Assembly (NCBI GenBank): GCA_017676145.1 | Contig: GCA_017676145.1_3628.1 | DNA length: 64,000 bases | Direction: 5' to 3' (one strand) | Origin: a phage | Shown: piece after piece, positions 1,674 to 22,138 of the stretch | How positions within the stretch are numbered: position 1 is the stretch's first letter | How the letters are laid out: each line of letters starts with the position of its first letter | Notes under the pieces: generated by a model | The model's input: only the letters and a program-made list of their open reading frames with translations | Told to the model about the DNA's origin: nothing | Databases searched by the model: none | Translations under genes and position numbers: made by a program

Positions 1674-1760
1674 GTTCTCCTGAGAAAATTCCTTAAGGAC
1701 TATTTTAACACTTTAGAGAACAAAATGCAAGAACGGCATCCTTGCCGTTCTGACCTTTGT

Positions 1761-2075: not shown

Positions 2076-2086
2076 AACACCTCCTC

Positions 2087-2671: not shown

Positions 2672-2685
2672 GCTAGTCCTCCGAT

Positions 2686-3726: not shown

Positions 3727-3738
3727 TTTATCTCCTGA

Positions 3739-5811
3739 TTATGAGAAGTCTGGCGGGACAACATCTTCTACATACCCTTTCAGAGCAACCTGCCCCATAT
3801 GGAGCACGGTAGAATCCCTAGCGGTAACAGTGATGCTGTCAGACATTACTTGCGGGTATGCCCACACATACTGTTTTACCTCAGGGTATCTATACTCTAT
3901 GGTTGCCATGTTCCCGCAGATACATCTCCATAAAAATTCTTGGTAATTCCTGGTTGGGTCGTAGCCATATACCGGAGCAAGCTCTTTGCTAGGAACGAAC
4001 CCTGCAAGGTATTGTATTTCAGACGGTTGCCAACCTAACTTAACGATAGGTATGTTTACAGACTCTTTTGCCTTTTCAATACCACCCTGCATCACCCAAT
4101 CGTAGCACTCAGTGCAGAAGAAATCAAGAGCACCTGCTTCCTTTTTATATTGGTCAGCAAGGTTCAGCTTTTGCGTAAGCTCGGTTTCCATAATGGTCGG
4201 GAAAAACAGCAAAGCTGTCATCTGAGCCGATGCAGCGTGTGCTTTTATTGCCTTTGAAATAGCTGCAATACGAGCGCCAAGCTTACCACGACAAAATGCT
4301 ACATACTTGTCATAAACACCGCCAGTTTTAGGATCGTCAATAGTCCCAATGTCTAGTGCATATTCACCAGTCTCATCATAAAACGCCTGTTTTGTAGGGT
4401 AGTCATAAATACAAGGCTTACGAGTATCGGTATTGAACCACCACCACGGTTCACCAATCTGCATAATTACTGGCAGGTTGTTTCTCATAGCGGCTGATGC
4501 AAAATTCTTAAATACTGCAGTAAGGAAATTCATACCCTCTTCAATGGTTGGAGACAAGAGGTAACTACAAGGCGTATAGCCTGTTTTAGCATAGTTATCG
4601 TTCCAATCTCTCTGGGTCCATTCCAACGGACAGGCATCGCTATAAAGCTCAAAGCTTACAGACTGCATAACGTCGAAGTCATGTCGCTTGGCATTATACA
4701 TAAAGTCATCGTGCCATTTATAAGCTGCAGCGTTTAGAGCCCCTGTCCTGTTTATAGACCATTGGGTTCCGGACCATGTGTAATCATAATAATGGCTCAT
4801 ACCAACATAATGGTTTATGGTTCCGGTATAGCCCAGACGCTTGATATTGCTCACCACCCTTAAAGGAGATACGTTCCACATATCGTCATATGCTGTGCAG
4901 ATCCCAACGTCGTGCTCTTTCACCTGGATATTGTTAAGTTGCATCATTTTCCAGCCTGTGTCTGGCTGAAGCAGATCTAGACGCAACTCACACTCTACAT
5001 TTTCCGTTCTTGGGTCTGTACTATTACTTACCCAATCTTTAGGCATAAGTGGTATTAGAATCCTTCTCACCTGTCGAGGATCAACACCCATCATGTTGTT
5101 GTTCTGGTCCATCCCGACGCAGTCCTCGAAATCAATATGAATTTCTGCAACATTCTTATCCTCTGAGATGCTGACAGCATATTGAGCTAAAGGAACATAG
5201 ATGATTGTGCCATCAACAAGGTCTACAGTCATAATCATCTTTTCAGGGGTGGAGAAGTTGCTGGCATTGGTTATTGACATTCTGAACCAAAGCTTGGTGT
5301 TTCTCATCTCGTAGTGATCATCAAATCCAATGCCGAAATGGTCATACTTGTCAACTGTTTCCCAAATGCACCCAGCCATGCCTCCATATGTTCTTGACAC
5401 TAAACGGTTAATACAGCAGTTATTATCTGCAACAATACAGGTGCTTTCAGTCTGCTGGGTAGTTGTAACCCAATATCTTGGGTGAAACATTCTCTCCTCA
5501 ACAGTATCCCAAGATATTCTGTCAAGATTCTCATCTGAAACTATTGTGCATTTCGCTCTTTGTGTTCCAATCATAACCCCTTGAGAGTTTGATGAAAACT
5601 CCATAAAGAAGCTTCTTGGCAACCTGTTTGGCAATTTGTCAACAATTTCTACAGGGATCTCAATACTGGTTGCCCCAACCGGGATAGTTACATCGCCCTC
5701 AACATGATCATAATCTCTACCTGGAACTGCAGTATCCTGAACTGTGCGGTAATGAAACCGTGCAGCCATCGTAGAGTAATCACGGTAAGGTTTAAAAACA
5801 GCTGTTGCCAT
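3739..5811 (-). CDS. tail-associated protein with N-terminal Calx-beta-like segment
   Basis: 690 aa; N-terminal DYDHVEGDVTIPVGATSIEIPVEIVDK resembles a Calx-beta repeat; position in fibre module. Confidence 0.4.
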   Translation of the reverse strand: MATAVFKPYRDYSTMAARFHYRTVQDTAVPGRDYDHVEGDVTIPVGATSIEIPVEIVDKLPNRLPRSFFMEFSSNSQGVMIGTQRAKCTIVSDENLDRISWDTVEERMFHPRYWVTTTQQTESTCIVADNNCCINRLVSRTYGGMAGCIWETVDKYDHFGIGFDDHYEMRNTKLWFRMSITNASNFSTPEKMIMTVDLVDGTIIYVPLAQYAVSISEDKNVAEIHIDFEDCVGMDQNNNMMGVDPRQVRRILIPLMPKDWVSNSTDPRTENVECELRLDLLQPDTGWKMMQLNNIQVKEHDVGICTAYDDMWNVSPLRVVSNIKRLGYTGTINHYVGMSHYYDYTWSGTQWSINRTGALNAAAYKWHDDFMYNAKRHDFDVMQSVSFELYSDACPLEWTQRDWNDNYAKTGYTPCSYLLSPTIEEGMNFLTAVFKNFASAAMRNNLPVIMQIGEPWWWFNTDTRKPCIYDYPTKQAFYDETGEYALDIGTIDDPKTGGVYDKYVAFCRGKLGARIAAISKAIKAHAASAQMTALLFFPTIMETELTQKLNLADQYKKEAGALDFFCTECYDWVMQGGIEKAKESVNIPIVKLGWQPSEIQYLAGFVPSKELAPVYGYDPTRNYQEFLWRCICGNMATIEYRYPEVKQYVWAYPQVMSDSITVTARDSTVLHMGQVALKGYVEDVVPPDFS

Positions 5812-8105: not shown

Positions 8106-11100
8106 TTAGTCGTGAGACTCGTTCCAAGGTCCCTGGAAGCTTGAGTTAGAACGACTAACGATCACAGTGGGACAGGAGATTGTGACACCTGTCACGCTAG
8201 ACGTTGACCACGGTGTGTAAATCTCGATAACAATGTCTATAGTTTGTTCACCCAGACCTGTTATCCCTACCGCACACATGCCGTTGTTGTCGTTAAAATA
8301 CTTCTTGCCAGCAAGGATCTGATGACCAGCTATCCATGCATTCAGTTGGGAGCTGGCAAGAGTACCATTCAGTTTAAAGAAGAATGTTACGTTCTTACCC
8401 TGACCTGAAACGTTATCTACGTATCTCCACCTCCAACGGCAAACCCTTTGCTGGGAGTTATATACTGGAGCACAATCCCCGTAAGTCCTGTGTGCAACAA
8501 TTGCACCTTCGAACTGGTTAGCGCGGATAACAGAAGCTTCTACACGACCACGGAAGGTACCTCCGGTTGCATCTATGGTGCCTCTAAAGCTACCATTATT
8601 GGCATAAACATCCCCACGGAAGGTACCACTGGTGGCGTTAACTGCCCCTGTGAAGTTACCTGCACTAGCGTTGATGTTACCTTTCACCCACACATCCATA
8701 AACTGGGCGTGCCCGTTCTTGTTAATATACCAACCGTATTTGTGGTACCCGTTGCCATCGTAGTTGTTAGACGAAATTTCTTGTGCAATCTTGGCAGAAG
8801 AGATCGTCCCGTTCTCTATAAAGGCATCTTTCAAGAACGCTTGGTTGTTCTTAATTGCGAAAGCAAGGGTTGCTGTTCCATTCCCAGGGTTGTATACCGC
8901 AAAGTTGTTTGCACTAACCATGAAGTATGATTGAACTTGGCCTCCAGAACCTTCCATGCCCAATTGGATACCTGCCACATACTTATTCCCTGCGGAGTCT
9001 ACCTGTATTTTTGTGCCCCATTGAGCATTTACTTTGCCCTCTAAGTCGGTCACAGCCTTAGATGTTGTAGCCACTGCAGCTCTTAGCTCTGATACATCCC
9101 CAACATCATCAATGATCTCCTGCTTAGCAACAGCAAGTTCTTGACGAATAGCTGACGCTGTGCCGTTAATAAGATCCACAGTTGCTTTGTTGGTATCGGA
9201 GATTGTAGCGTCCAGTGCTGTTTTTGTGGAGGTCAGCTTACCATCCAAATCCGCAATCGCCTGTTTGTTGGTAGAAATCTCCCCACGTGCAGAAGTTATC
9301 TGCTCAGACAGTGCGGAGGTTTTCTGATTCAACAAATCTGTGGTGGCCTTGTTGGTATTGGCAATCAAGGTATTGAGATCAGTTTTTGCGGTAGTTATCT
9401 TACCATCAAGGGTGGCATAGTTCTTAGATACCGTCGCGTTTGTCTGACTGATCTTTTGATCCAGAGTTTCAGAGGTCCTGTTAAGAAGATCCACTGTCGC
9501 CTTATTGGTGCTCAAGATGCTTGCGTCAAGTTCTGTTCTCTGGGTATTGATCTTGCCATCCAGAGTTTTATCTCCGGCAAGGTATCCGCTCTCCACTCCA
9601 CCTATTTGTTCTACCAACTCCCCTTTGGCTGCAACCAATTTCTCGTCTAAAGCCTCTGTCTTTTTGTTCAGAAGATCAGTGGTTGCTTTATTGGTTGTCT
9701 CAATCAGGGATGCCAGTCTTCCACTTTCAGTGTTCAGATCGTTGGTGAACTTGTTCTGTGCAGCAACAAGTTTCTTATCCAGCGCTGTGATATTGCCATT
9801 GACATCCTCAAACTTCTGAGTTGTCTCTGTAACTACAGCACCTATCCTATCCCCAAGTTGTTGGAATGCCTCATCTACCCTTCCGTCCATGTACTTGTTA
9901 AGTTCTGTGACACGATTTTCAACCTCTTCAATAGAGGAATCTAAAGTGCTCATCAACTCTTTATAAGTTTCTGTCTTTTTAAATTCAGCATCTATCTGAG
10001 GCATCAAATCTTCAATGGAGGTATAGCAGCGTGCAGCACACTCTACAAACTGAGAACTACCAAAAGCATTTGTGGTTCGAATATACCAATAATAAATCTT
10101 ATCGTTCTGCAGACCTTCAGATGTCCAAGTTGAACCAACACCCATGCGGGTGGCTTTTGAAGTAACGGTTGCATCACTTGTGTCCGGCAACCTTGTCATA
10201 CCAGATGTCCAAAAGTCATACTGGGTGCTTACACTTGCCAAGTCCCTACTGTGTGGAATCAGGGTGATAGCAAAGTACCCCTGCTTAACTTCTACAGAAA
10301 CCGGAGCTTCAGGTGCCTGAATGTTAAACTCGCAGTACGCTTCTGGAGATACACCGCCTTTATAAGATGTTGCAACCACGGTTGCTGTGTATGACCCTTT
10401 GGTCAATCCTTCTACGCGGACAAACTGCTCGACTGTTTGTGCTGTCCAAATAATCTCTCCGTTCTTTCTTACCTGCACAATATTTTGAGCGTAAGTCCCA
10501 ACGTTGTCCCAAGCTAAAACACCGTGAGTTACTTCTCCAGCTTGGAGAACGGAATATCTGAAGTTTTGCGGTTGAGCTACACCAGATGGGGATATCGGAA
10601 TATCTACATCGCCAGAATCCGGAAGTTGCCCTGTGGCATCATTCCACTCTTTAGCATCTTGACGAAGTTTTACCTTGACACCGCCCTTTTTGGTGAACTC
10701 CCATTCAAGAACCCTCATTTCTTGGCCCACTATACCAATACTTGGGAGGTCCATTGTAACATAACGGCCAGGCTTAAATTTAAAACCTCGCATATTGCAG
10801 GTGACTTCAATAATCCTGCCAGCTCTAGCACGTCTTAAGAAGATTGCAGAAACACGTTGAGCTTGATAAGGACTGGTAACAAAGCGATAGTCTATATCGA
10901 TTATCTTTCTTTCTCCATCCTTCTCTATCCACTCTGGTACAAACACTGATGGGAAATCTGTTTCAGAATACCCTTTGGTCGGACTAGTGAATCTGCCAGT
11001 TATCGTGTTAGATCTTTTGTCAAATGAGGCTTCCGGATAGATCTTAACCTCACCACAGACACAGTCCTCACTCAATGTCATTGTTGCCGGACCATAGTAT

Positions 11101-11945
11101 GCACCAACCAGCAAACCATACTTACCAGCAACATAACTAAGGTCTGCACCGCAAGCTTTCAGCATTTCTGCCATAATACTTGCTGGGGCCTCATCCATGT
11201 CAAACTCACCGTTAATGGTGTAACGTCGCTCACTGGTGCCGTCAGCGTTTTTTACCGCCTCGTCGCATATGTTGGCAGCCTCCTTGAAGGACTCCCAGTT
11301 GATGGTTTCGTCAGGACATTTAAGGTACGTTCTTAAATAGTCTAGGATCACCAAGGCCGCGTTATTGGTATACACCTCTTTACTGGTGCGAGGATCATAA
11401 CATTTTTTACCAACCTTGATGAGTGTAACGTTTGGCAACCCAAAAGGAAACTTGTTAGGGTCAAACCTGAAGCTAACACGTAGCCAGCTGATCCCTCTAC
11501 CTATCATGTCCGGTGACCACGATGGGCAGTGTGTGCCCATGAAAGGATCAGAGGTTTTTCTGTCGTTATGTAGCTCCCACGATACCAAATCTCCATACGA
11601 AGAAATAGGATTACCGTCGATAAGTATATCTTCTATACCTTCTAGCGGGTGATTGGCAAGAACAATGGCACAATGGAGGGTTCTGTCTCTATCCTGCTCC
11701 AAAAACGCAAGCAATCCAGATGTGCGTGTCTTCCCATACACTACAGAGCAAGGTGCAGCAGAAGATCTGAGAAGCTTTTGTCTATCTTGCTGACTTCTGT
11801 AAGATTTGTTACCCTCGAAAATCTTATCCAGAGTTCTGGTGGTAACAGTGTTCAGACTGTCAGCCAGAGCTGCCTTGGATGCGTTCCAGTCATAGCTTGA
11901 AGATCTTGCAGAAGCAACGATGTTATCAATCATTGCAATTGGCAT
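8106..11945 (-). CDS. lambda J-like host specificity protein (central tail fibre)
   Basis: 1279 aa; fibronectin-III-like segment (IQAPEAPVSVEVKQGYFAITLIPHS) and C-terminal block KYVAGIQLGMEGSGGQVQSYFMVSANNFAV resembling lambda gpJ ([30 protein letters not shown], recalled from memory); central coiled-coil repeats. Confidence 0.65.
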   Translation of the reverse strand: MPIAMIDNIVASARSSSYDWNASKAALADSLNTVTTRTLDKIFEGNKSYRSQQDRQKLLRSSAAPCSVVYGKTRTSGLLAFLEQDRDRTLHCAIVLANHPLEGIEDILIDGNPISSYGDLVSWELHNDRKTSDPFMGTHCPSWSPDMIGRGISWLRVSFRFDPNKFPFGLPNVTLIKVGKKCYDPRTSKEVYTNNAALVILDYLRTYLKCPDETINWESFKEAANICDEAVKNADGTSERRYTINGEFDMDEAPASIMAEMLKACGADLSYVAGKYGLLVGAYYGPATMTLSEDCVCGEVKIYPEASFDKRSNTITGRFTSPTKGYSETDFPSVFVPEWIEKDGERKIIDIDYRFVTSPYQAQRVSAIFLRRARAGRIIEVTCNMRGFKFKPGRYVTMDLPSIGIVGQEMRVLEWEFTKKGGVKVKLRQDAKEWNDATGQLPDSGDVDIPISPSGVAQPQNFRYSVLQAGEVTHGVLAWDNVGTYAQNIVQVRKNGEIIWTAQTVEQFVRVEGLTKGSYTATVVATSYKGGVSPEAYCEFNIQAPEAPVSVEVKQGYFAITLIPHSRDLASVSTQYDFWTSGMTRLPDTSDATVTSKATRMGVGSTWTSEGLQNDKIYYWYIRTTNAFGSSQFVECAARCYTSIEDLMPQIDAEFKKTETYKELMSTLDSSIEEVENRVTELNKYMDGRVDEAFQQLGDRIGAVVTETTQKFEDVNGNITALDKKLVAAQNKFTNDLNTESGRLASLIETTNKATTDLLNKKTEALDEKLVAAKGELVEQIGGVESGYLAGDKTLDGKINTQRTELDASILSTNKATVDLLNRTSETLDQKISQTNATVSKNYATLDGKITTAKTDLNTLIANTNKATTDLLNQKTSALSEQITSARGEISTNKQAIADLDGKLTSTKTALDATISDTNKATVDLINGTASAIRQELAVAKQEIIDDVGDVSELRAAVATTSKAVTDLEGKVNAQWGTKIQVDSAGNKYVAGIQLGMEGSGGQVQSYFMVSANNFAVYNPGNGTATLAFAIKNNQAFLKDAFIENGTISSAKIAQEISSNNYDGNGYHKYGWYINKNGHAQFMDVWVKGNINASAGNFTGAVNATSGTFRGDVYANNGSFRGTIDATGGTFRGRVEASVIRANQFEGAIVAHRTYGDCAPVYNSQQRVCRWRWRYVDNVSGQGKNVTFFFKLNGTLASSQLNAWIAGHQILAGKKYFNDNNGMCAVGITGLGEQTIDIVIEIYTPWSTSSVTGVTISCPTVIVSRSNSSFQGPWNESHD
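9100..9800 (-). repeat. in-frame tandem repeats (about 100 nt units) inside the J-like gene
   Basis: protein shows repeated TNKATTDLLN / TNKATVDLLN / TNKATVDLIN units; matching DNA units such as tggccttgttggtattggcaatcaagg and ttgctttgttggtatcggagattgtag. Confidence 0.4.
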
Positions 11946-12382
11946 TAATACCTCCAGACATCAACAACGATAGAATCTTTCATATCGAACGTAAAGATCC
12001 CTTTATCACCTTTCGCCCAAATCTGGTTGTTCCAGAACACACCAGCGGTGAGGCCGTTCAGACCTTCGAAAATAACAATATCGCCACGCTGAACCTGTTT
12101 AGGAGTATCCAGTCTAGTCAAAAAGAGATCAAAAATAGTAGGCAGGTGTGTGGTTTTGAAACGGAGCATGCACCATCTCTTGCTTTCCAACTCTGTTTTA
12201 TACGTTCCTTCAAAGTTAGAAAGAAAATCTGTTCCGTATTGGGCATCAACACACTTAGCCGCAAAAGTGCAACAATCGTGGAATCCCCATTCAAACGGGA
12301 CGGTGGCTTCTTCGTCAAATACTTTCCACAATTTTTCTTGCCAGTCTACTAAACGAGGGTGTGTGCTCATTAAACCTCCCAA
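11945..12382 (-). CDS. tail assembly protein, possibly NlpC/P60-like (gpK-like)
   Basis: 145 aa; FHDCCTF motif; immediately upstream of the J-like gene. Confidence 0.3.
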   Translation of the reverse strand: MGGLMSTHPRLVDWQEKLWKVFDEEATVPFEWGFHDCCTFAAKCVDAQYGTDFLSNFEGTYKTELESKRWCMLRFKTTHLPTIFDLFLTRLDTPKQVQRGDIVIFEGLNGLTAGVFWNNQIWAKGDKGIFTFDMKDSIVVDVWRY

Positions 12383-12936
12383 ATGATCGGGCGGCTCGCC
12401 ACCTGATCCACATATTTAAAAAATCTGTCATTATCGTTTCTTGAGCTATGGCTTTCCTCTGTGTATCGGTAAGGAAAACCTCTTAACCAGCTGTTGAAGA
12501 TGGAAGAGATGGATATGGACAAAGCACTATTCTCCCCTGTCTGAATAGCCATGTCCGTTATAAGGCCGTCAAACAAGCCATTAGTTGTAACAGGCAAACC
12601 ATTCTCCATAGCGGTGATATACAACGTGGCACGGCAACCGGAATACTCAGTCTTCAGAAGATCACCTACATACTTGGGATCAAACCCGTTCAATGTTGCT
12701 ACCACAGATCCGAAGTTGGTGGCATCTTTCTCAGACACAGCAGTCAATGTTGCTGATCCACCTATCCCTATAAAATGTTGCCCCTCAATAACCACAACAC
12801 CAGTTCCTGAGCACACCCTGACAGTCCCTGTTGGCAGCTCTAGCTTTGCAGCAATTAAGATCTCAACACCATCAAGCTCTAGCTTTTCAAGAAATAAATT
12901 ATCTAATGGCGCTCTTATCATCTTAGAAATCCTCAA
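12370..12936 (-). CDS. minor tail protein (hypothetical)
   Basis: 188 aa ORF overlapping neighbours; operon position. Confidence 0.3.
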   Translation of the reverse strand: MRISKMIRAPLDNLFLEKLELDGVEILIAAKLELPTGTVRVCSGTGVVVIEGQHFIGIGGSATLTAVSEKDATNFGSVVATLNGFDPKYVGDLLKTEYSGCRATLYITAMENGLPVTTNGLFDGLITDMAIQTGENSALSISISSIFNSWLRGFPYRYTEESHSSRNDNDRFFKYVDQVASRPIIWEV

Positions 12937-13513
12937 AGAAGTTGATAACTATATTGTCACCTTTCTGCATAGCATCAACCTTTTGCTTAATTTTATAAAG
13001 ATCTCGGATATGAAATCTACCCTTCGGAGATTGAGTTATTATTTTCATGGTATCCCCTGCGGCAATGGGTTTCCTAAGTCTTGGGGATATGTTTATAACA
13101 GCGGCCCCAACACCATCACTTCGTACTGAGGCTGTCACCACTTTCAACTCATCATTGACAGATATTTTATCTCCAGCTCTGGCTATATCCCTGTTAGGCT
13201 CCCAACCAACCGTCTTCAAAAAATCGTCGTTACCAGTCGGTCCTAGAGCGATTGGCTCATTGGAGGTCACTGAATGCCCATAAGCCTTGATAAGAAAAAT
13301 GTTTCCATCTTTGTAAACCTGATCAACAAAACTTTTAAGCTCTAACAACTGAGACTCGCTGATATTGGAAACCGTCAAAGTGCCTTTCCAATTAGGTGTG
13401 GCATAGGTTACTTTTTGCGTTTTACCTGTAAACGGGCTTTTAAACGTAACAATATCTGCCAACAACTCCAATCTAATGTCTGGAAGGTATCTAGGCCTTT
13501 CCCATAAAAACAT
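12923..13513 (-). CDS. minor tail protein (hypothetical)
   Basis: 196 aa ORF; operon position. Confidence 0.3.
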   Translation of the reverse strand: MFLWERPRYLPDIRLELLADIVTFKSPFTGKTQKVTYATPNWKGTLTVSNISESQLLELKSFVDQVYKDGNIFLIKAYGHSVTSNEPIALGPTGNDDFLKTVGWEPNRDIARAGDKISVNDELKVVTASVRSDGVGAAVINISPRLRKPIAAGDTMKIITQSPKGRFHIRDLYKIKQKVDAMQKGDNIVINFFEDF

Positions 13514-13612: not shown

Positions 13613-16600
13613 TTACTTCAATTTTCCTTGTAACTCGGTGACAACCTCTGTCAATTTTTTAACCTGTTCCTCAAGGGAGGTTATTCTATCATCTTGTTCT
13701 CTGCAAACCTGAACAAGCAATCCTGTTACAGCAGCATAGTCAACATTATAGAATCTTTCCTCGGTCATCAGAGGAATACCATCTTGAGTAGGACCAGGAA
13801 CCTCTTTCCTTTTCACGAAAGAACCAACCGCTTCAGGTAATGCTTCCATAACCTCTTGAGCAATTACCCCCGCGTGAGGCATACCATTCTCTTTTAGAGT
13901 GTAGGTATAGCCTTTCATCTTACGGATAGCTTCCAGCGCGTTAGGAATAACCTCTATGTTATCCTTCAGGTCACGGTCAGAGCTCTGGCTGACAGCAGTG
14001 CACTCTACTACGCCGTTAACAGCAAGGTACCTTGACTTGGCCTCATCTGTCTTAGCACCACAATGCCATACCCAACTGGCAGATGTAGCGTTGTCGTTTA
14101 TCTGGAACTCAAGCACGTTCTTCCTGTCTGCGCCATTACCCCAGTAGTACATTCTGCCTGTATTAGAAGGCATGTTGGAAGTGTTGGTAACATCAGTCCC
14201 ACCACCTGTATGTATCATGAACTCCGGGTCAAGATTGGAGCCTGCGGTTTTAAGAGTAATTCCCTTACCACCAAGCTGCTGCCAAGGTCCCCATGTGAAA
14301 ACACTACCTATTGTTGTTCCATAACGCAGGAATTTTTCCCCAAGATATGATATATACTCCTGTACGCAACTCTCTGGAACATTGGCGTAGTTCCTGTACA
14401 CTATAAGCGTACCTGCTCGGGAGCATGGGTAGTTTCTATCAGGTGTGGCTTGAGCATTGGCCTCCTGATGATAAAAACCTTCCCTATCCCCTTTATAGTC
14501 GTTAAGGTCATTAACCCCCAGACCTTGCCCTCTGTGTTGTATGACCTTGTTCCACGCTCTATGGTTACCACCCTCGATAGACCTGGTGTATAACTGATCA
14601 AGGCGACCAGCCATTTGGAAAGCATAGTTCCCAGAAAAAGCCACAGACAGTCCACCAACAACCATCGAACCTTCTGGTCCGTTGACGTTGCCAGCCATTA
14701 TTTTGGACGGGTTATTAGGCCCAAACTGGTTGTTCCAGTCTGCACCAGTGTGGCATACAAAACCACCAGGAGCTGAGAAAGTGCCATCTTTGTTGAAGTT
14801 GTAGAATCTGTGAGCAGAACCTACAACATCACGAACAATAACTTGACCAGCCTCTGGAGTAGATCTGAACTCTGCCTGTCCTTGCAGTCTTGCGCCATTA
14901 CCGCATTTAGAGGTAAAGGTATTGTTGATCAGATCCTCTGTTCCTTCCGATGCAGCTTGGAACCCTGCGTTAGAGAACAGTGCTTTTCTAGTGGTTTGGC
15001 TACCCGGGCAAATGTAGTTAAGACCGTTGTACCACATCTCTACAGGGGGCATTTCTGTCTTACTCATCAGAACCATTCGGTCAGGTGTGCCTATATAGTG
15101 CCGATCTGTACTACCGCCTGTATAGAACCCAGGTGTTCCCTTGAACTCCGCAAGAGTCCTAGTGTTTGTTACATCATCACCTTTAATTGCAAGGCTTAAA
15201 TTATCCGACGCAAGAGGGGCGCAAAACTTGACACCATCTTGGTTATTAGTAACATTTCCTACCTGCCAGTCATTTTCTCTGGTAAATACCTCAAGAACGT
15301 TTCTGCTTGTGTAGACACTGACAGGGAAAGCACGCGACTCAACATAGAATGCAACATACTCCTGCTTTCCTCTGGTTGGGGATACACATCCAAGAATTGC
15401 TTTCTCGTTTTGGTAGAAATTAATAACCCCTTGGAAAGAATCCCCTCTGTCTGTCCACCCACCGGTTCTATAGTGACACTGTAAGGTCGCACAGTTCATA
15501 GGGTCACTGCCAGATGACGATCTGGTAACTATAGTAATATCAGTACCAGTTGTGGGCGCATAGTATGGATCTGTTCTAACGATGATTGGGTAGTATTTCC
15601 CATCTTCCATTCCTGCAGTTCTTGGCAGTGTTAAGAAATCTTTTACGCCTGCCGCTACAGGAACTTTGAACAGATTCTGAGCATCTGCTAAAGTTGTAGC
15701 TCCAGTGCCACCTGCGGCCTGAGGTAAAGGTTCCCACTTGGCCTTCCGGTTGTTATAAACACCCCATTCCAGAGTACCATTACCGGACTCATCCATCCCT
15801 CCATCCCAGACGACCATCTTGGCGGCTTTCTTGGAACCCCAGAATCCTCTTTCTGCCCCTGAACTACGAATCCATTCTCCAAGTCCCCAGTTTGTCAGCT
15901 GACCAGTGAGATCCCCGACCTGCATGTACTTAGGACAATCTAATACACCATCTTCACGGAATCCTAAATACCGATGAGTTTCAGATCCTTTTGCGCCTTT
16001 GTGCAGGTGGACTGTTAACCAAGTCTTATTGTCGTTTCTTACCTCGGAGTAGATCCTATACCCATGCTCAAGGACACCGTCAGCACTGTATTTGTCCCCG
16101 TTAACAATACCTGATGCCGACTTAACATCAGCAGAGCTTTGAGACAGGTAAAGGTGCCCGAAGGTAGGGGAATTTCTAGACCCAAGACCGATGTGCGATC
16201 TAAAAGTATCATCGTTACGAGGTCTGACCATTGGCTGCCATGCAGTCCACTGGTTTGTGTTGGCCTGATAGGTTCTTAAATACCAAACATCTACGTTAGA
16301 GAATGGATAGTATTCCTGACGACAGCCAGTGCCACCGTTAGCATTGTTCTGCCAAACAATCAAGTGACCAGCACCAGAACCTGCAGGATAACCATTTGCC
16401 TCAGTTGCATTAGCTGTCATCGGCTGGTAGTATATGCCGTCCTGATTACCAGTCAAGTTATTGATATTGAAATTTGCCTCAAGGGCTGCACGTTGCTTAT
16501 AGAAAGCACCGATATTGATACGGACTCCAGCGGCATCTCTGGCTCCTGTACCGCCTTGCTCTATAGCAAGAGGTTGCCACGAGGCTGTTTGCTGGTTCCA

Positions 16601-17419
16601 CATACCCCAACGGCCTGTTGCATCAAGCTGCAAGTACCCTGCCGTGTTTAAATCATCTCCAGCACGGATAACTGTTCTTGTTGGGTTGTTTGCCTCCAGG
16701 CGTTTAAATTCATCACGAAGTGCTATTCTTTTTGTTGTTGCTACACCGTTGGTTACTGCAATGGTATACATGGCTCCAGAGGTAGCGCCACGGAAAATAC
16801 CATCAACAGTCGTAGTATCACGACGAGATACCACACCGTTCAAAAATTTTTCACCAGCTGCTTCAGAGGGGTAGTTAGTAGTTCTTCCCTCTTCAATAAC
16901 TGCAGGACCAACAAAGTTGACAAGGTGAATAACATCGCCTACAGTATGCACTGTACCAAAATCTACCCGCTGTGCAAGTGCTTTAGCATCGTTGGCTGTC
17001 TGAACCGTAACATCCATTACATCCTGGACAGACTGCCCTTCGGCTGTCATGATCATAGATGCGCCAATGGTAGACTCCAACTCCTCCCTTAAGGACGGGT
17101 CTGTATATACCATCCATGCAGCATCAGTAATCCCACCATCAGAGTACGGTGAAGACAGTGCAGGCACAGTGTGTGGAAATTCGCCTTTCCAACGCAGGTA
17201 GAGGTCTTCCTCTTCGAAGTAGGCAAAATCCATTGGGCCGTTTAACTTACCACCTTCCTTAAAGGAGATTACATGAGAAACAGTCCCATCCACATGGACA
17301 ACATCGCCAATTTTTACACGACGGGTCAGGTCTGGTTGTTGAACAACCAGGTAATCATCCTCTGTCACTGCGGTAGTGGCAGGAAGAGATTCAATTCTGA
17401 CAACTTTAATATCAGCCAT
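13613..17419 (-). CDS. tail fibre or tailspike with C-terminal intramolecular chaperone (peptidase S74-type) domain
   Basis: 1268 aa; C-terminus SSDRDLKDNIEVIPNALEAIRKMKGYTYTL matches the autocleaving chaperone signature; N-terminus shares an anchor motif with 20054-20722; internal duplicated segment. Confidence 0.6.
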   Translation of the reverse strand: MADIKVVRIESLPATTAVTEDDYLVVQQPDLTRRVKIGDVVHVDGTVSHVISFKEGGKLNGPMDFAYFEEEDLYLRWKGEFPHTVPALSSPYSDGGITDAAWMVYTDPSLREELESTIGASMIMTAEGQSVQDVMDVTVQTANDAKALAQRVDFGTVHTVGDVIHLVNFVGPAVIEEGRTTNYPSEAAGEKFLNGVVSRRDTTTVDGIFRGATSGAMYTIAVTNGVATTKRIALRDEFKRLEANNPTRTVIRAGDDLNTAGYLQLDATGRWGMWNQQTASWQPLAIEQGGTGARDAAGVRINIGAFYKQRAALEANFNINNLTGNQDGIYYQPMTANATEANGYPAGSGAGHLIVWQNNANGGTGCRQEYYPFSNVDVWYLRTYQANTNQWTAWQPMVRPRNDDTFRSHIGLGSRNSPTFGHLYLSQSSADVKSASGIVNGDKYSADGVLEHGYRIYSEVRNDNKTWLTVHLHKGAKGSETHRYLGFREDGVLDCPKYMQVGDLTGQLTNWGLGEWIRSSGAERGFWGSKKAAKMVVWDGGMDESGNGTLEWGVYNNRKAKWEPLPQAAGGTGATTLADAQNLFKVPVAAGVKDFLTLPRTAGMEDGKYYPIIVRTDPYYAPTTGTDITIVTRSSSGSDPMNCATLQCHYRTGGWTDRGDSFQGVINFYQNEKAILGCVSPTRGKQEYVAFYVESRAFPVSVYTSRNVLEVFTRENDWQVGNVTNNQDGVKFCAPLASDNLSLAIKGDDVTNTRTLAEFKGTPGFYTGGSTDRHYIGTPDRMVLMSKTEMPPVEMWYNGLNYICPGSQTTRKALFSNAGFQAASEGTEDLINNTFTSKCGNGARLQGQAEFRSTPEAGQVIVRDVVGSAHRFYNFNKDGTFSAPGGFVCHTGADWNNQFGPNNPSKIMAGNVNGPEGSMVVGGLSVAFSGNYAFQMAGRLDQLYTRSIEGGNHRAWNKVIQHRGQGLGVNDLNDYKGDREGFYHQEANAQATPDRNYPCSRAGTLIVYRNYANVPESCVQEYISYLGEKFLRYGTTIGSVFTWGPWQQLGGKGITLKTAGSNLDPEFMIHTGGGTDVTNTSNMPSNTGRMYYWGNGADRKNVLEFQINDNATSASWVWHCGAKTDEAKSRYLAVNGVVECTAVSQSSDRDLKDNIEVIPNALEAIRKMKGYTYTLKENGMPHAGVIAQEVMEALPEAVGSFVKRKEVPGPTQDGIPLMTEERFYNVDYAAVTGLLVQVCREQDDRITSLEEQVKKLTEVVTELQGKLK

Positions 17420-17454
17420 TCTTTCTCCTGAAAGGGGGCAAACAGCCCCCTATG

Positions 17455-20052
17455 TTAAAGGTACAATCCACGGTATTGAGCATAAAGTCCCAGACCGCGA
17501 AGGATTTCGCCAGAGTGATAGCCTACCGGATCAGAAACTGCCCAGCAGCCGTTTAAAACATTATCCCCGTTAATGAAGTGGTGCTTTTGCAGTAACTTCA
17601 CACAGGCTTCTACAACAATATCTATTTGAGGTATTGTCTCTGAATACCCGCAAAGACCTAGCCAGCAGCAACCTGCAAGCCATTCACCTACCACCCACAT
17701 CCTGTCACCTCTGTCTTGATAAGAATATCCTCCTGAGGTGTTAAAGTCTGTAGGGAGATTTCCGGAATGAGATGACTGGAATCTGTTGAGGAACCATGCC
17801 CATTTCTGGCAGAACAGGAACAGTCTTTCGTCAACAGGTTCTTTATGTTTCTTAAGCTCATATAGTGTGCGGCACGCAGCAACAAAGGCTCTTGATTGGA
17901 GTTTAGAGTTATCTACCATCTCCCACCAACCAGTCAACCCTTCATTACCCCTCTGCCATACGTAGCGGGATGCAACTGGTCCTTCTGTTTTAAATGTGTT
18001 ATTATACCAAACTTGGGAGTCGTACATAAATCCAATTGTATTTGCCAATCTTTGACGATCTATGTTTTCCGCACCCATACAGTAGACTACCGGATATTGC
18101 ATTCCGGGATAGGGCCAATTTGGCCTTTCCTCTAGAAGATAATTTTCCTTATCTATCACCTTTCCGGCAGGGAACACACCTGGAGTGTGTCTGTATGCGC
18201 CTTGCTTGTAGTTTCTGACATAGCAATCACCAACCTTGGCGGTTGATTCTGTCTTGCTTGCCATCCATACACTAAACCAGATCAGATAAGCATCCCTATC
18301 TGCAACATAAAATTGCGGCAGCGTGTTGACGCAATACAGATCGAACAAGCCATTACCTATCTGCCTGTCGCTCAGACTGAAATCTACAGAGGTAATTCCT
18401 TTAGGGTTGGCAAAGAAAGGTTTAATCTCATCTTCTGTGTGATGAGGTTGTGTTGGATCTAGTTTAAAATCACCTAGGGTAAGAGTTTCTGTTATCCATT
18501 GTCCGTTAGTGGCATATAGATCAGCATACCATAACCAACGGTCTTTGTCAAGAAATTTGACCCTTACCATCTCATCATCTGATCGATAAGTTACTGAATT
18601 TAAAGAAATCTCTCTTCCAAAATTGAAAGTTACTTTGCCTCTTACTATGTTGCAACGGGTGAAGTTGTCGGAGTGGTTGTAAATGTCGGTATCATACTGC
18701 ATACTAACACTAGCGCCACCGCTTACGGCAATGTTTTCCTCTTTTGGCAAGAGATACGGGTTACCGTCTTTACCAACCACCTCTACGAAATCAGTAACTT
18801 TGGCAACTGTCTCTGTTACTTCTGACCCTCCAAAAGGGACCCCTATCCTATACTGTTTTTTGTTATTGTTGCCATCATTAAGGATGAAATGTGGCTGGAA
18901 CAGAACCCCCTCTCCTCCGAAATTCATAACAATTTCAGCATCTCTGCCTATCTTGTATGTAGTCCCTTTTTGGATTATTTCGCAAGGCTGGCGTGCGTTC
19001 ATTCTAAAATTGATATACCCGTCGCTGTCCCTACTCATGACAGGAACTGTTCCTGCAACGAGACAAGTACCATCTGTGAACGGTGCCTTAATCAACGTGG
19101 TCTTTCTAAACAACTTGTCGTAGGCATTTATATCACTGAAATTAAGCAACTTGTTGTAAGACTGTTTAAACGCGGTGTAATACTTTTCCTCGCCTGTCAA
19201 AGTGTAGAGTTGATAACAAGCGTCACACCACATTTCTTCCCCGTCCAACTCTGGGGCTTGATTGTCTGCAACCACATTTATAGGGTTTACAATTACAGGG
19301 GATCCAGCAGGTATCACCGATCCACCCTGCTCTTGTGGCAATCTCACACAGTAGGTTACCTTGTGGCTGCCTGTAACACCCTTATCCTGCAGTTGGATTG
19401 TGCCGAACTCTGCAGACGTATGACCACTGTCGGCTATGCTACCGTTGGCCCAATAGCGGTTACCATCCCATGCTATATACCACTCAACCCACCAACTTAA
19501 TCCAGATGTTGTCCAATTTGGGTTAGCATCCGTGCCGCCGTAAACATCAGAGTCTACAGTGTTTCTTCCTAGCACACCGTTATACGCTTGAAATGCCTTG
19601 TCTAGGTATTCACCCCATGTCGGAGATCCAGCTGGGATTTTTCCTCTACCATTGGTAAAAGACACCACTACATCTTTAAACCCACCATGTGATGGGACCC
19701 CGTCTGTAGATAATGGGTAGTGGGACAATCTTTGCATTTTACTTTCTACTGCATATGCACCCAGAAGATGACTGTTGTAGGCTTCCCAGGCTTCTTTGGC
19801 CCTATCTAGATAAAAATCGCTTTTCGATGCCCTGTATGCTTCAATGTATCCCAGAATCAACACAGCCTGAGCTTCATGCATTGCCCAATCATTATTTATC
19901 TTACTCCCTGACCAACCTGACGCTATAAGTCCATCCTGGTTTACCAGCTTGTTCTGCGTGGAGAGATTGGTAATGCCTGTGTTATTATCGAGGCACTTCC
20001 TGTGCCCCTCAATCATCTGAAATACGTTATCAATGTTGTGTTGAATACGCAT
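17455..20052 (-). CDS. putative polysaccharide-degrading enzyme (depolymerase-like tail protein)
   Basis: 865 aa; no N-terminal anchor; Trp/Tyr-rich segments; follows a short anchor-bearing protein. Confidence 0.4.
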   Translation of the reverse strand: MRIQHNIDNVFQMIEGHRKCLDNNTGITNLSTQNKLVNQDGLIASGWSGSKINNDWAMHEAQAVLILGYIEAYRASKSDFYLDRAKEAWEAYNSHLLGAYAVESKMQRLSHYPLSTDGVPSHGGFKDVVVSFTNGRGKIPAGSPTWGEYLDKAFQAYNGVLGRNTVDSDVYGGTDANPNWTTSGLSWWVEWYIAWDGNRYWANGSIADSGHTSAEFGTIQLQDKGVTGSHKVTYCVRLPQEQGGSVIPAGSPVIVNPINVVADNQAPELDGEEMWCDACYQLYTLTGEEKYYTAFKQSYNKLLNFSDINAYDKLFRKTTLIKAPFTDGTCLVAGTVPVMSRDSDGYINFRMNARQPCEIIQKGTTYKIGRDAEIVMNFGGEGVLFQPHFILNDGNNNKKQYRIGVPFGGSEVTETVAKVTDFVEVVGKDGNPYLLPKEENIAVSGGASVSMQYDTDIYNHSDNFTRCNIVRGKVTFNFGREISLNSVTYRSDDEMVRVKFLDKDRWLWYADLYATNGQWITETLTLGDFKLDPTQPHHTEDEIKPFFANPKGITSVDFSLSDRQIGNGLFDLYCVNTLPQFYVADRDAYLIWFSVWMASKTESTAKVGDCYVRNYKQGAYRHTPGVFPAGKVIDKENYLLEERPNWPYPGMQYPVVYCMGAENIDRQRLANTIGFMYDSQVWYNNTFKTEGPVASRYVWQRGNEGLTGWWEMVDNSKLQSRAFVAACRTLYELKKHKEPVDERLFLFCQKWAWFLNRFQSSHSGNLPTDFNTSGGYSYQDRGDRMWVVGEWLAGCCWLGLCGYSETIPQIDIVVEACVKLLQKHHFINGDNVLNGCWAVSDPVGYHSGEILRGLGLYAQYRGLYL

Positions 20053-20053
20053 C

Positions 20054-20722
20054 TTAGATAGCTCCTGCTATAATCAGTGCCCCGTACCAAGTTAACCCGT
20101 TGTCGTAGGTTTCTAACTTGAAAATATCTGTTGCACCAGCTGTAAATGTTAGGATAGGATCTCTTCCGTATGCCCATTTAACATTATCAGGCCAATAGAC
20201 TTTGTTACCGCCAGAGGTCTGAGTAATGCATACGGTTATAGTTCTCGCTACCCCTTCAAGACCTTCTGTCTGATTTTCAAAAGAGATTGTGGTATTTGAA
20301 GTTAGTCGAACTTTAAAAGTGTCCGCAACTTCAAGATCCATATCAAGCTGACCACCAATAGATCCGTAATCAACTATTCTGCCAGAAGAAGTTGCAGCAA
20401 GCTCCCCAAAAACAGACCAGGCTTTTGCAGACACACCCCCAGCACCCTCTACAGTAGAGTCTGGGAGGATTATTTTAGGATAATCCCCGTTCCACGTGTA
20501 GTAGCGCTTAGTTTCTGGATCATAAGCAAAGTCCTTCTTGCTCTTAAGATAACCACCCTCTGTGAAATAGACTATCTTAGTAATGCTAAGATCGTTGACA
20601 ACATCGTCAATCTTAGCCTTTCTTGTCCCATCAGTCTGGTTGACAACCAAGAAGTCATCACTCAGGACTGTTTCTGCATCTTCAAGATCTGGAATTGGTA
20701 TTGTAGGATAAGCTACAGCCAT
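20054..20722 (-). CDS. tail fibre adaptor with conserved N-terminal anchor domain
   Basis: 222 aa; N-terminus DFLVVNQTDGTRKAKIDDVVN parallels DYLVVQQPDLTRRVKIGDVVH of 13613-17419. Confidence 0.45.
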   Translation of the reverse strand: MAVAYPTIPIPDLEDAETVLSDDFLVVNQTDGTRKAKIDDVVNDLSITKIVYFTEGGYLKSKKDFAYDPETKRYYTWNGDYPKIILPDSTVEGAGGVSAKAWSVFGELAATSSGRIVDYGSIGGQLDMDLEVADTFKVRLTSNTTISFENQTEGLEGVARTITVCITQTSGGNKVYWPDNVKWAYGRDPILTFTAGATDIFKLETYDNGLTWYGALIIAGAI

Positions 20723-21460: not shown

Positions 21461-22138
21461 TTAGTGCGGTCCACTTGTCTCACCATCAGGGCAAGAGTGG
21501 GTATGACCTTTATATTCTGCATAGAATGAGTCCAAATCCACACCAGCAGCAGTTATGATTCTACCCGATGGGTCTATTGTGGCACCATTCATTCTAATAT
21601 TTCCATCCACAGCAGCTCGTAAATTGGCAGCTCCGTTGGTGAAAGAAAACTCCCCGCTACTGTCGCACCGTAATGTCCCACCAGGTGTTTGAAGCTCAAA
21701 ATCACCAGAAGGTGTCAGCTTAAAATAAACCCTATCATTCCATAACTCTACATTATCAGGATCGATCTGCAGAGCATTAGAGTCTGAATGAACAGAGGTT
21801 ATTGCCCACCCCGGAAACAGGCCGTGAGTTTGTTGATCATCGTTATTGTTTTCATTTCTCTCTGAAAACTGCAACCCTACAACATCTCCAGCCTTAATAG
21901 GGAGTGTTAACCTTGCCTTCCCACTGTTTGCAGACATCACCTGGATTGGCACATCATAGATAAGAGGGTATCTCTCAACATCTCCGTCATCAAACGTGGT
22001 TTCAGCTATTGGCTGCACGGCTGCGGAAGGGATACTGTAATCTACGCTGACAACTCTAGCCCTGATACTGGTGTGGTAGTCCCTCATTATTTTTTCTATA
22101 AAGGATCTTACGGCAGCATCTTTCCTATTTATTGCCAT
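21461..22138 (-). CDS. baseplate protein (hypothetical, spike or hub-sized)
   Basis: 225 aa ORF; position. Confidence 0.3.
   Translation of the reverse strand: MAINRKDAAVRSFIEKIMRDYHTSIRARVVSVDYSIPSAAVQPIAETTFDDGDVERYPLIYDVPIQVMSANSGKARLTLPIKAGDVVGLQFSERNENNNDDQQTHGLFPGWAITSVHSDSNALQIDPDNVELWNDRVYFKLTPSGDFELQTPGGTLRCDSSGEFSFTNGAANLRAAVDGNIRMNGATIDPSGRIITAAGVDLDSFYAEYKGHTHSCPDGETSGPH

What the first reader, a model, noticed from the sequence alone, without database searches (positions are those of the whole stretch)
17455..20722. Adaptor plus 865 aa enzyme-like tail protein: candidate capsule or LPS depolymerase
The 222 aa protein (20054-20722) carries the same N-terminal anchor motif as the large fibre 13613-17419, while the 865 aa protein downstream has no anchor and is rich in aromatic residues with segments suggestive of a carbohydrate-active fold. 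This is the architecture of a virion-attached depolymerase docked through a short adaptor.
Basis: inference. Interest (0 to 1): 0.5.

Follow-up and report, generated by a model that had tools for sequence, protein, structure and literature searches.

The report
Tail glycosidase-like protein plus adaptor
Two neighbouring genes of an rV5/FV3-type coliphage encode a small tail adaptor and a large tail protein built on a sugar-cleaving enzyme fold; the pair is already catalogued in known phages, and its predicted enzyme activity has never been tested.

Summary
Both ORFs exist on the minus strand, 1 nt apart. The 222-aa protein shares its first ~105 residues with the 1268-aa fibre (E 2e-18). The 865-aa protein has no such anchor.

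The window is a Vequintavirus, 98.9% nt identical to phage FV3 over the finding. The genes are FV3 ORF43/42, equivalent to rV5 gp43/gp42 (both found in rV5 virions) and phi92 gp140/gp141.

The small protein's C-terminal beta-sandwich sits directly upstream of a large homologue in 10 of 11 intact loci from unrelated phage groups, while its N-terminus varies. This supports adaptor docking.

The gene is under strong purifying selection (dN/dS 0.04), so it is not a serotype-specific capsule or O-antigen depolymerase. A conserved glycan target, or glycan binding without cleavage, is more likely.

Verdict: real, ordinary and already annotated ("glycosidase domains"), but biochemically untested.

The parts
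20054..20722 (-). 222-aa tail adaptor (FV3 ORF43 / rV5 gp43; phi92 gp140 family, PHROG 7760)
   Evidence: ORF. PHROG 7760, E 6e-119. 100% identical cluster P0095. rV5 gp43 was detected in virions (PMC3606486).
20411..20722 (-). Anchor half of the adaptor (residues 1-104): short N-terminal motif plus Tail_spike_N domain (residues 51-104), homologous to the N-terminus of the 1268-aa fibre
   Evidence: BLASTP E 2e-18. Pfam PF18668, E 3e-10. PDB sequence hits to N-terminal domains of CBA120 TSP1/3/4 and other tailspikes. Low model confidence as a monomer.
20057..20383 (-). C-terminal beta-sandwich of the adaptor (residues 114-222), the part conserved across phage groups; proposed docking domain for the large protein
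17455..20052 (-). 865-aa tail protein (FV3 ORF42 / rV5 gp42; phi92 gp141 family, PHROG 2871) with a six-hairpin glycosidase-like barrel
19753..20052 (-). Barrel segment 1 (residues 1-100): N-terminal helix 2-23 and hairpin 59-96, with motif H-E60-A-Q62 (family consensus T-E-G-Q)
   Evidence: Secondary structure. E60 in 27/28 and Q62 in 28/28 sequences. Resembles BcsZ TS-E55-GQ, the residue mutated in PDB 3qxq. Weak profile hits to GH76, cellobiose 2-epimerase and six-hairpin chains at residues 72-107.
19267..19752 (-). Beta-rich insert 1 (residues 101-262)
   Evidence: Strands 101-254 in the model. Holds conserved E148 and D151.
19123..19266 (-). Barrel segment 2 (residues 263-310): hairpin 269-305, with motif D270-G-E272-E-M-W (family consensus D-A-E-x-W-F)
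   Evidence: D270 in 27/28 and E272 in 24/28 sequences. Aligned by hhalign, not significantly, to the BcsZ GH8 signature SAS-D-G-D-VW.
18088..19122 (-). Beta-rich insert 2 (residues 311-655), several beta-sandwich-like units; invariant R341, Y489 and D502
   Evidence: Strands 329-613. Invariant columns. Residues 482-580 also match PHROG 23426, another tail protein family.
17458..18087 (-). Barrel segment 3 (residues 656-865): six helices, with motifs Y-D678-S-Q680, G691-P...W699-x-R701, R721 and E849
   Evidence: Helices 663-863. Conservation counts.
17434..17450 (-). GC-rich hairpin (GGGGGC-TGTTT-GCCCCC, then TTT) between the 865-aa gene and the 1268-aa fibre gene
   Evidence: Read directly from the sequence. 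Not called by the terminator scan, because its T-run is too short.
13613..17419 (-). 1268-aa lateral fibre carrying the same N-terminal anchor and a C-terminal S74 intramolecular chaperone (context; sits where phi92 has endosialidase gp143)
   Evidence: Pfam Tail_spike_N and Peptidase_S74. Synteny with phi92. Distal part variable, 47-74% aa identity to MaxTheCat.
3739..5811 (-). 690-aa N4 gp65-like protein (Calx-beta + NCTSP_N + NCTSP TIM barrel); possible functional partner (context)
   Evidence: Pfam E 2e-79. Two homologues of the 865-aa family are fused C-terminally to this module, E 4e-157 and 8e-135. phi92 gene order is gp140-gp141-gp142.

Best explanation
The two genes form a two-part tail appendage of an rV5/FV3-type myovirus.

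The 222-aa protein is the adaptor. Its first ~105 residues are a short anchor motif plus a Tail_spike_N domain, homologous to the N-terminus of the neighbouring 1268-aa fibre. They plug it into the same kind of socket on the baseplate or fibre network. Its C-terminal ~110-residue beta-sandwich holds the 865-aa protein through the latter's conserved N-terminal region.

The 865-aa protein is a six-hairpin (alpha/alpha)6 glycosidase-type barrel carrying two large beta-rich inserts. It engages, and probably hydrolyses, a conserved host surface glycan during adsorption, not a serotype-specific capsule or O-antigen.

Shown: the ORFs, the anchor homology, the fold, the conserved acidic motifs, the strict gene adjacency across phage groups, and purifying selection. 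Taken from the literature: presence of both proteins in rV5 virions. Inferred: physical docking, the direction of docking, catalysis and the substrate.
For: Identity:
- 98.9% nt identity to FV3 over the finding. The genes are FV3 ORF42/43.
- rV5 gp42 and gp43 were found in virions by mass spectrometry (PMC3606486).

Fold and motifs of the large protein:
- AF2 pLDDT 87.2, pTM 0.81.
- The only profile-vs-PDB sequence hits are six-hairpin enzymes.
- Conserved motifs: T-E60-G-Q62 (27/28 and 28/28) and D270-A-E272-x-W (27/28 and 24/28). They resemble BcsZ TS-E55-GQ and SAS-D-G-D-VW and are paired with them in a greedy hhalign alignment.

Coupling of the two genes:
- 1-nt gene spacing.
- The small-protein C-domain ORF abuts the large ORF in phAPEC8, SE13, SPN3US, phi92, SD-2_S15, phiEa104, SeKF_80, Cronobacter A24, EC151 and Vibrio D506.
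- The two proteins have almost the same genus-level distribution, 537 against 525 phage records.
- The conserved part of the small protein is its C-terminus and its N-terminus varies by phage group. The large protein is conserved from residue ~2-10 onward.
- The Goslar homologue has a 278-aa N-terminal extension and no separate small ORF.

Anchor: E 2e-18 to the 1268-aa fibre.

Constraint: dN/dS 0.039 for the 865-aa gene and 0.067 for the 222-aa gene.

Earlier predictions by others agree:
- phi92 Gp141 is listed as 'glycosidase' (PMC5380687).
- S144 ORF17: 'HHpred predicts hydrolase' (PMC7432712).
- BASEL annotation: 'glycosidase domains'.
Against: - No sequence model of any glycoside hydrolase family reaches threshold. 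On the full protein there is no Pfam hit. On barrel-only constructs the hits are sub-threshold only, GH76 E 8e-4 to 0.013 and GH9 0.011, and GH8 is absent. hhalign to BcsZ gives E 0.42.
- The catalytic base cannot be assigned. D678 is not aligned to BcsZ D243.
- The Vequintavirus lineage departs from the family consensus at 37 of 128 conserved columns, against a median of ~7 for other members.
- It lacks an acidic residue at 4 of 15 conserved acidic columns: D309N, E360I, D703N and D782G, though E704 and D783 lie next to two of these.
- No coordinates were available, so clustering of conserved residues in the barrel pocket was not checked.
- A small-large fusion could not be shown convincingly, hhalign E ~0.001 over 22-94 columns.
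Confidence: 0.55

Rival explanations
1. The 865-aa protein is a non-catalytic structural or glycan-binding body of a lateral fibre. Its barrel descends from an enzyme but no longer cleaves anything in the Vequintavirus lineage. The 222-aa protein still serves as its adaptor.
For: - The window protein and its 56% relative P0003 are outliers, with 37 and 36 departures at 128 conserved columns.
- They lack several conserved acidic and aromatic residues and a 9-residue loop around residues 700-718.
- No glycoside hydrolase family model reaches threshold.
- Other family members carry varied C-terminal modules (NCTSP, Big_2, Gly_rich_2), as a fibre shaft that presents distal domains would.
Against: - E60, Q62, D270, E272, D678 and Q680 are retained in the window protein.
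- dN/dS 0.039 shows strong constraint over the whole protein, though this fits a binding role equally well.
- Acidic residues lie next to two of the 'lost' positions, so part of the loss may be alignment shift.
Confidence: 0.3
2. Reverse topology: the 865-aa protein is fixed to the baseplate. It acts as a hub on which the anchor-bearing proteins (the 222-aa protein and the 1268-aa fibre) dock through their shared N-termini.
For: - Two different proteins share one anchor type and need a socket.
- In phi92, fibre II is reported to join the base of fibre I (PMC13450770).
- phi92 gp140 and gp143 share the first ~35-residue motif, judged by eye.
- The gene lies between the two anchor-bearing genes.
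Against: - In Rosemountvirus, SPN3US, Grimontviridae and Vibrio phages the small protein keeps the C-domain but has an unrelated N-terminus, while the large protein is conserved. If the N-terminus bound the large protein, it should be the conserved part.
- No other anchor-bearing fibre accompanies the module in those phages.
Confidence: 0.1
3. One reading: a capsule- or O-antigen-specific depolymerase that produces haloes on particular host serotypes.
For: A glycosidase-like fold in a virion tail protein. Relatives are known for wide host ranges that include capsulated strains (PMC8594841).
Against: - 97% aa identity across more than 110 Vequintavirus genomes, and dN/dS 0.039.
- The BASEL study finds allelic variation only in the three largest fibre genes.
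- The same family occurs in phages of Escherichia, Salmonella, Vibrio, Erwinia, Cronobacter and others.
- The fold is not the beta-helix of known capsule and O-antigen depolymerases.
Confidence: 0.07

Closest known systems
Escherichia phages FV3 ORF43/ORF42 and rV5 gp43/gp42 (Vequintavirus)
   Same: Essentially the same genes: 98.9% nt identity over the finding and 99.9% aa for the large protein, with the same order and neighbours. rV5 gp42 and gp43 are virion proteins by mass spectrometry.
   Different: Nothing material. Published annotation stops at 'tail protein', 'tail fiber protein' or 'glycosidase domains'.
phi92 gp140 (157 aa) and gp141 (958 aa), Justusliebigvirus
   Same: Same position after the sheath-initiator gene gp139. 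gp141 is 35% identical over its full length, E 5e-175. gp140 matches the adaptor C-domain, E 5e-29. Gp141 is listed as a predicted glycosidase.
   Different: gp140 lacks the Tail_spike_N domain and has only the short N-terminal motif. gp141 is ~90 aa longer and keeps the family-consensus residues that the window protein has lost. In phi92 the N4 gp65-like gene gp142 follows directly. The 2026 cryo-EM study did not place gp141 and left fibre II unassigned.
GH8 inverting glycoside hydrolases (E. coli BcsZ, Listeria PssZ, C. perfringens CPF_2247)
Branched or adaptor-mounted tailspikes: CBA120 TSP2/TSP4, G7C gp66/gp63.1, K1-5/SP6 gp37
   Same: A virion-anchored protein provides a docking domain for a second, anchorless enzyme. 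Tail_spike_N is the TSP1/gp66 N-terminal domain. There is a weak fold match to TSP4-N.
   Different: Here the cargo is an (alpha/alpha)6 barrel, not a trimeric beta-helix. The adaptor is far smaller than TSP4 or gp66 and has no enzymatic part of its own. Docking is not demonstrated.
N4 gp65-type non-contractile tail sheath protein (NGR-binding), represented in the window by the 690-aa ORF 3739-5811
   Same: Part of the same lateral-fibre locus. In two homologue clusters the gp42-like protein and the NCTSP module form one polypeptide. The genes are adjacent in phi92.
   Different: A different fold family (TIM barrel). Its phage distribution is narrower and does not cover the Salmonella, Vibrio, Erwinia and Cronobacter phages that carry the gp43/gp42 module.

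Membership tests
phi92 gp141 / rV5 gp42 tail protein family (PHROG 2871) | Full-length sequence homology to family members | tested here: met
   PHROG 2871 E 0, 1174 bits. 99.9% to FV3. 35% identity and E 5e-175 to phi92 gp141. 90 representative clusters in an exhaustive HMMER search.
phi92 gp141 / rV5 gp42 tail protein family (PHROG 2871) | Component of the virion | not testable with these tools
   Literature only: rV5 gp42 was detected by virion mass spectrometry (PMC3606486). S144 ORF17 is treated as a tail protein.
phi92 gp140 / rV5 gp43 small tail fibre protein family (PHROG 7760) | Sequence homology, especially of the C-terminal ~100 residues | tested here: met
   PHROG 7760 E 6e-119. 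phi92 gp140 E 5e-29. Alignments A1 and A3.
Six-hairpin (alpha/alpha)6 glycosidase superfamily | (alpha/alpha)6 barrel fold | tested here: met
Six-hairpin (alpha/alpha)6 glycosidase superfamily | Acidic catalytic residues at the barrel mouth | tested here: inconclusive
   E60, D270, E272, D678 and E849 are conserved in 24-27 of 28 sequences, and two sit in GH8-like motifs. No significant alignment, no coordinates, base unassigned.
Six-hairpin (alpha/alpha)6 glycosidase superfamily | Glycan hydrolysis | not testable with these tools
   Needs biochemistry.
CAZy GH8 (Pfam PF01270) | Match to the family sequence model | tested here: not met
   No Pfam hit on the full protein. None to GH8 on ten barrel-only constructs at E up to 10. 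hhalign to BcsZ E 0.42.
Classical tailspike depolymerase (trimeric parallel beta-helix) | Right-handed beta-helix catalytic domain | tested here: not met
Classical tailspike depolymerase (trimeric parallel beta-helix) | Own N-terminal particle-binding domain | tested here: not met
   No similarity to the anchor.
Classical tailspike depolymerase (trimeric parallel beta-helix) | Allelic variation that tracks host capsule or O serotype | tested here: not met
   97% aa identity across the genus. dN/dS 0.039, while the neighbouring fibre varies.
Adaptor-mounted tail enzymes (CBA120 TSP4/TSP2, G7C gp66, K1-5 gp37 type) | Adaptor carries a virion-anchor domain | tested here: met
   Tail_spike_N plus an N-terminal motif shared with the 1268-aa fibre.
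Adaptor-mounted tail enzymes (CBA120 TSP4/TSP2, G7C gp66, K1-5 gp37 type) | Anchorless partner encoded next to the adaptor and co-inherited with it | tested here: met
   10 of 11 intact loci from unrelated phage groups. Matching distributions.
Adaptor-mounted tail enzymes (CBA120 TSP4/TSP2, G7C gp66, K1-5 gp37 type) | Docking domain of T4 gp10 / XD type | tested here: inconclusive
Adaptor-mounted tail enzymes (CBA120 TSP4/TSP2, G7C gp66, K1-5 gp37 type) | Physical complex between adaptor and enzyme | not testable with these tools
   No multimer prediction or interface output was available. Needs pull-down or cryo-EM.

The most novel reading that the evidence does not exclude
In rV5- and phi92-type phages the adaptor, the (alpha/alpha)6 protein and the N4 gp65-like protein (window 3739-5811; phi92 gp142) would form one lateral fibre, possibly the unassigned 'fibre II' of phi92. 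That fibre would target the conserved ManNAc-containing NGR exopolysaccharide, with the GH8-like barrel acting as the NGR hydrolase, much as the GH8 enzyme PssZ cleaves the ManNAc-based Listeria exopolysaccharide. The PssZ substrate is stated from my own knowledge, not from a tool result. More broadly, the small-plus-large pair would be a mobile two-gene cassette that delivers a non-beta-helix glycanase to tails of myo-, podo- and siphoviruses.
Probability: 0.12. Interest if true: 0.6.

Novelty: already known. Interest (0 to 1): 0.3.

Why it matters
If the barrel is active, this family is found in more than 500 sequenced phage genomes across many host genera. It would then be a widespread, uncharacterised class of virion glycanase that is not a beta-helix and that targets a conserved rather than a serotype-specific glycan. 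That is of interest for biofilm or exopolysaccharide-degrading enzymes and for host-range engineering.

It would also help to assign genes to the three lateral fibre sets of rV5- and phi92-type phages. The BASEL authors call that assignment 'far from clear', and the 2026 phi92 cryo-EM study left it open for fibre II.

As it stands, the finding re-identifies an annotated gene pair and a prediction already in the literature.

Tried and rejected
- PDB sequence search with the 865-aa protein: no hit at E up to 1. The profile search gave only weak hairpin-motif hits.
- NCBIfam: nothing for any of the three proteins.
- The search for homologous proteins returned only 5 relatives of the large protein, even with a profile. 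The exhaustive representative search was needed.
- The search for related loci with the alignment failed: no stretch conserved enough.
- hhalign of the full or barrel-only alignment against E. coli BcsZ was not significant. GH8 membership is therefore not claimed.
- I first thought Y-D678-S-Q might equal the BcsZ base motif SY-D243-A. The greedy alignment does not pair them and helix numbering is ambiguous, so this was dropped.
- Rosetta-stone test for a small-large fusion:
  - An HMM of the small family hit only P0064, an odd 293-aa chimera.
  - The 276-350-aa N-terminal extensions of P0024, P0030, P0034, P0063 and Goslar gp92 gave at best hhalign E ~0.001 over a short terminal hairpin. The result is inconclusive.
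- SD286 'gp38' (PMC12946066) is an unrelated 123-aa protein.
- An internal repeat in the 1268-aa fibre, suspected by eye, was not confirmed by self-BLASTP.
- The idea that the module is always tied to the NGR fibre was rejected. NCTSP homologues are absent, at tblastn sensitivity, from the Salmonella, Vibrio, Erwinia and Cronobacter phages that carry the module.
Full report
WHAT IS THERE

On the minus strand, ORF 20054-20722 (222 aa) is followed after a single base (TAA-G-ATG) by ORF 17455-20052 (865 aa). An AGGAG lies 10 nt before the second start. A GC-rich hairpin (17434-17450) separates the 865-aa gene from the 1268-aa fibre gene 13613-17419. A strong terminator-like site follows that fibre gene.

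The region is 98.9% identical in DNA to Escherichia phage FV3 and 94% identical to most of about 120 Vequintavirus (rV5-like) genomes. The two ORFs are FV3 ORF43 and ORF42. They correspond to rV5 gp43 (222 aa) and gp42, both detected in rV5 virions by mass spectrometry (PMC3606486). The BASEL phage MaxTheCat annotates them as 'sialidase domain protein' and 'lateral tail fiber protein with glycosidase domains'.

CHECK OF THE OBSERVATION

- Residues 8-105 of the 222-aa protein align with residues 7-105 of the 1268-aa fibre: 38% identity, E 2e-18. Both carry Pfam Tail_spike_N.
- A phmmer search with the anchor against all window ORFs finds only these two proteins.
- The 865-aa protein shows no similarity to the anchor; the best E is 1.1.
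- Aromatic content is 12.9% against 9.8 +/- 1.9% for 52 long ORFs, rank 3. This is real but modest.

THE LARGE PROTEIN

It matches PHROG 2871 ('tail protein', 1174 bits) and has no Pfam, NCBIfam or PDB sequence hit. An exhaustive HMMER search found only 90 representative clusters. tblastn found the family in 525 phage records:
- Vequintavirus, 97% aa identity;
- Phapecoctavirus and phi92-like phages, 35%;
- Rosemountvirus and Loughboroughvirus, SPN3US- and Goslar-type jumbo phages, Asteriusvirus, Erwinia Kolesnikvirus, Grimontviridae, a Queuovirinae siphovirus and Vibrio phages, 26-31%.

phi92 gp141 is 35% identical over its full length.

An AlphaFold2 model built on 28 diverse homologues is confident (pLDDT 87.2, pTM 0.81). 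Eleven helices (2-23, 59-96, 269-305, 663-863) are interrupted by beta-rich inserts at about 101-262 and 311-655.

Family-wide conservation highlights four motifs:
- T-E60-G-Q62 (27/28 and 28/28);
- N-A-x-D270-A-E272-x-W-F (27/28 and 24/28);
- Y-D678-[SA]-Q680 (25/28 and 28/28);
- G691-P...W699-x-R701-W-D703, together with E849.

E60 and D270 are each the second residue of a predicted helix. The E. coli GH8 enzyme BcsZ has TS-E55-GQ and SAS-D116-G-D118-VW. PDB entries 3qxq and 7f82 carry substitutions at positions corresponding to BcsZ E55 (Gln) and D243 (Ala); from my own knowledge these are the catalytic acid and base. A greedy hhalign alignment pairs E60 with E55 and D270 with D116, but it is not significant (E 0.42), and no equivalent of D243 emerges. 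Ten barrel-only constructs give only sub-threshold Pfam hits (GH76, GH9, C5-epimerase) and none to GH8.

So the fold is shown, a GH8-like acid and Asp pair is plausible, and membership of a CAZy family is not supported.

The window protein is also a divergent branch. It departs from consensus at 37 of 128 conserved columns, against a median of about 7 for other members. It lacks an acidic residue at four of 15 conserved acidic columns, although two of these have an adjacent acidic residue. Even so, it is under strong purifying selection: dN/dS 0.039 against MaxTheCat, with 93% nt and 97% aa identity. The neighbouring 1268-aa fibre drops to 47-74% aa identity in its distal part.

THE SMALL PROTEIN

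It matches PHROG 7760. Residues 51-104 are Tail_spike_N. PDB sequence hits for this stretch are N-terminal domains of CBA120 TSP1/3/4 and other tailspikes.

This C-domain is the conserved part of the protein. It aligns with the small ORFs that precede the large homologue in phAPEC8, SE13, SPN3US and phi92, whereas the N-termini differ.

COUPLING OF THE TWO GENES

HMMs of the C-domain and of the large family were run on 12 fetched loci; the Vibrio PVA7 locus is fragmented into short ORFs, which leaves 11 intact. In 10 of the 11 intact loci the C-domain ORF ends at, or overlaps, the start of the large ORF. These 10 loci cover myoviruses, jumbo phages, Grimontviridae and a siphovirus.

The exception is Goslar. 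There the large ORF carries a 278-aa N-terminal extension and no small ORF is present. Homology of that extension to the C-domain could not be established.

tblastn distributions of the two proteins nearly coincide, 537 against 525 records, with the same genus breakdown.

The argument for the docking direction is this. The conserved C-domain goes with the conserved N-terminal region of the large protein. The variable N-terminus of the small protein goes with the phage-specific virion. In this window that N-terminus is the same anchor as on a bona fide fibre. This is inference, not demonstration.

CONTEXT

- Synteny with phi92 is: hub, spike, sheath initiator gp139, gp140, gp141, gp142, gp143.
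- The 2026 phi92 cryo-EM study assigns fibre I to gp143 and fibre III to gp147. It leaves fibre II unidentified and never considers gp141.
[quoted passage not shown] It attributes primary adsorption to a conserved glycan, later named NGR, via the N4 gp65-like deacetylase fibre.
- That protein is window ORF 3739-5811: Calx-beta, NCTSP_N and NCTSP TIM barrel.
- Two clusters of the large family (P0019, P0024) are fused C-terminally to the same NCTSP module, E 4e-157 and 8e-135. Other clusters carry Big_2 or Gly_rich_2 tails. The C-terminus of the large protein can therefore carry distal modules.
- NCTSP homologues are not found in the Salmonella, Vibrio, Erwinia and Cronobacter phages that carry the module. 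The link to NGR is at most lineage-specific.

MECHANISM AND RIVALS

- Best explanation (0.55): an adaptor-mounted, six-hairpin glycosidase-like tail protein acting on a conserved surface glycan.
- Main rival (0.3): the same architecture, but the barrel only binds glycan or is structural in this divergent lineage.
- Reverse topology, with the large protein as hub (0.1): disfavoured by the variable N-termini of the small protein.
- Serotype-specific capsule or O-antigen depolymerase (0.07): disfavoured by conservation, distribution and fold.

COMPARISON AND NOVELTY

The locus is the known rV5/FV3 gp43-gp42 pair. Three earlier sources already point to a hydrolase:
- phi92 Gp141 is listed as a predicted glycosidase (PMC5380687);
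- S144 ORF17 'might have hydrolase activity' by HHpred (PMC7432712);
- the BASEL annotation reads 'glycosidase domains'.

This analysis adds:
- a confident fold assignment;
- the candidate acid and Asp motifs;
- the divergence of the Vequintavirus branch;
- the strict two-gene cassette across unrelated phage groups;
- the NCTSP fusions.

None of these changes the category. This is an already known, annotated feature whose function remains untested. Interest is 0.3.

Noticed in passing
window 8106-13513 (minus strand): A lambda-like tail-tip gene set sits inside a myovirus baseplate and fibre cluster. It comprises a 'distal tail protein' (PHROG 1302, 12923-13513), a tail protein (PHROG 2048, 12370-12936), DUF6950 (11945-12382, annotated 'cell wall hydrolase' in BASEL) and a 1279-aa gpJ-like protein with Ig_J, Ig_J_second and Phage_Tail_Tip domains (8106-11945).
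   Followed up: partly
window 3739-5811 (minus strand): A 690-aa protein with Calx-beta, NCTSP_N and NCTSP TIM-barrel domains (N4 gp65-like; the NGR-binding fibre of the literature). The same module is fused to the C-terminus of two homologues of the 865-aa family, P0019 and P0024. Its phage distribution differs from that of the gp43/gp42 module.
   Followed up: partly
window 17434-17450 (minus strand): A GC-rich hairpin (GGGGGC-TGTTT-GCCCCC) followed by TTT lies between the stop of the 865-aa gene and the RBS of the 1268-aa fibre gene. It may be a weak terminator or an RNA-stabilising element. The terminator scan does not call it.
   Followed up: no
phage database records MG065635, MG065647, MG065653-MG065658 and others: 18-23 records named 'Campylobacter phage' (host C. 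jejuni) are 94-99% identical to these rV5-like coliphage genes. They look like mislabelled hosts or coliphage contaminants of Campylobacter phage stocks.
   Followed up: no
window 21461-22138 (minus strand): A 225-aa central spike protein with the N-terminal OB-fold domain of the phi92 spike family (Pfam PF18352) and a C-terminal G-H-T-H-S-C-P...G-P-H tip. The tip includes an HxH motif like the iron-binding apex described for phi92.
   Followed up: no
protein P0064 (293 aa, from the representative library): A chimeric ORF. Residues 18-194 match the N-terminal part of the large family, and residues 202-290 match the C-terminal domain of the small adaptor family (E 9e-23). The order is the reverse of the usual gene order. 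It may be a recombinant or an assembly artefact.
   Followed up: partly
window about 46000: GC skew changes sign, from negative before about 46 kb to positive after. This fits a switch of coding strand between the structural module (minus strand) and the following genes.
   Followed up: no
L011 (Goslar) 1664-5260; P0024, P0030, P0034, P0088: A subgroup of large-family homologues carries an N-terminal extension of very constant length (276-293 aa). At least in Goslar it lacks a separate small adaptor ORF. This may be an adaptor fused in cis, but homology to the adaptor C-domain is not demonstrable.
   Followed up: partly
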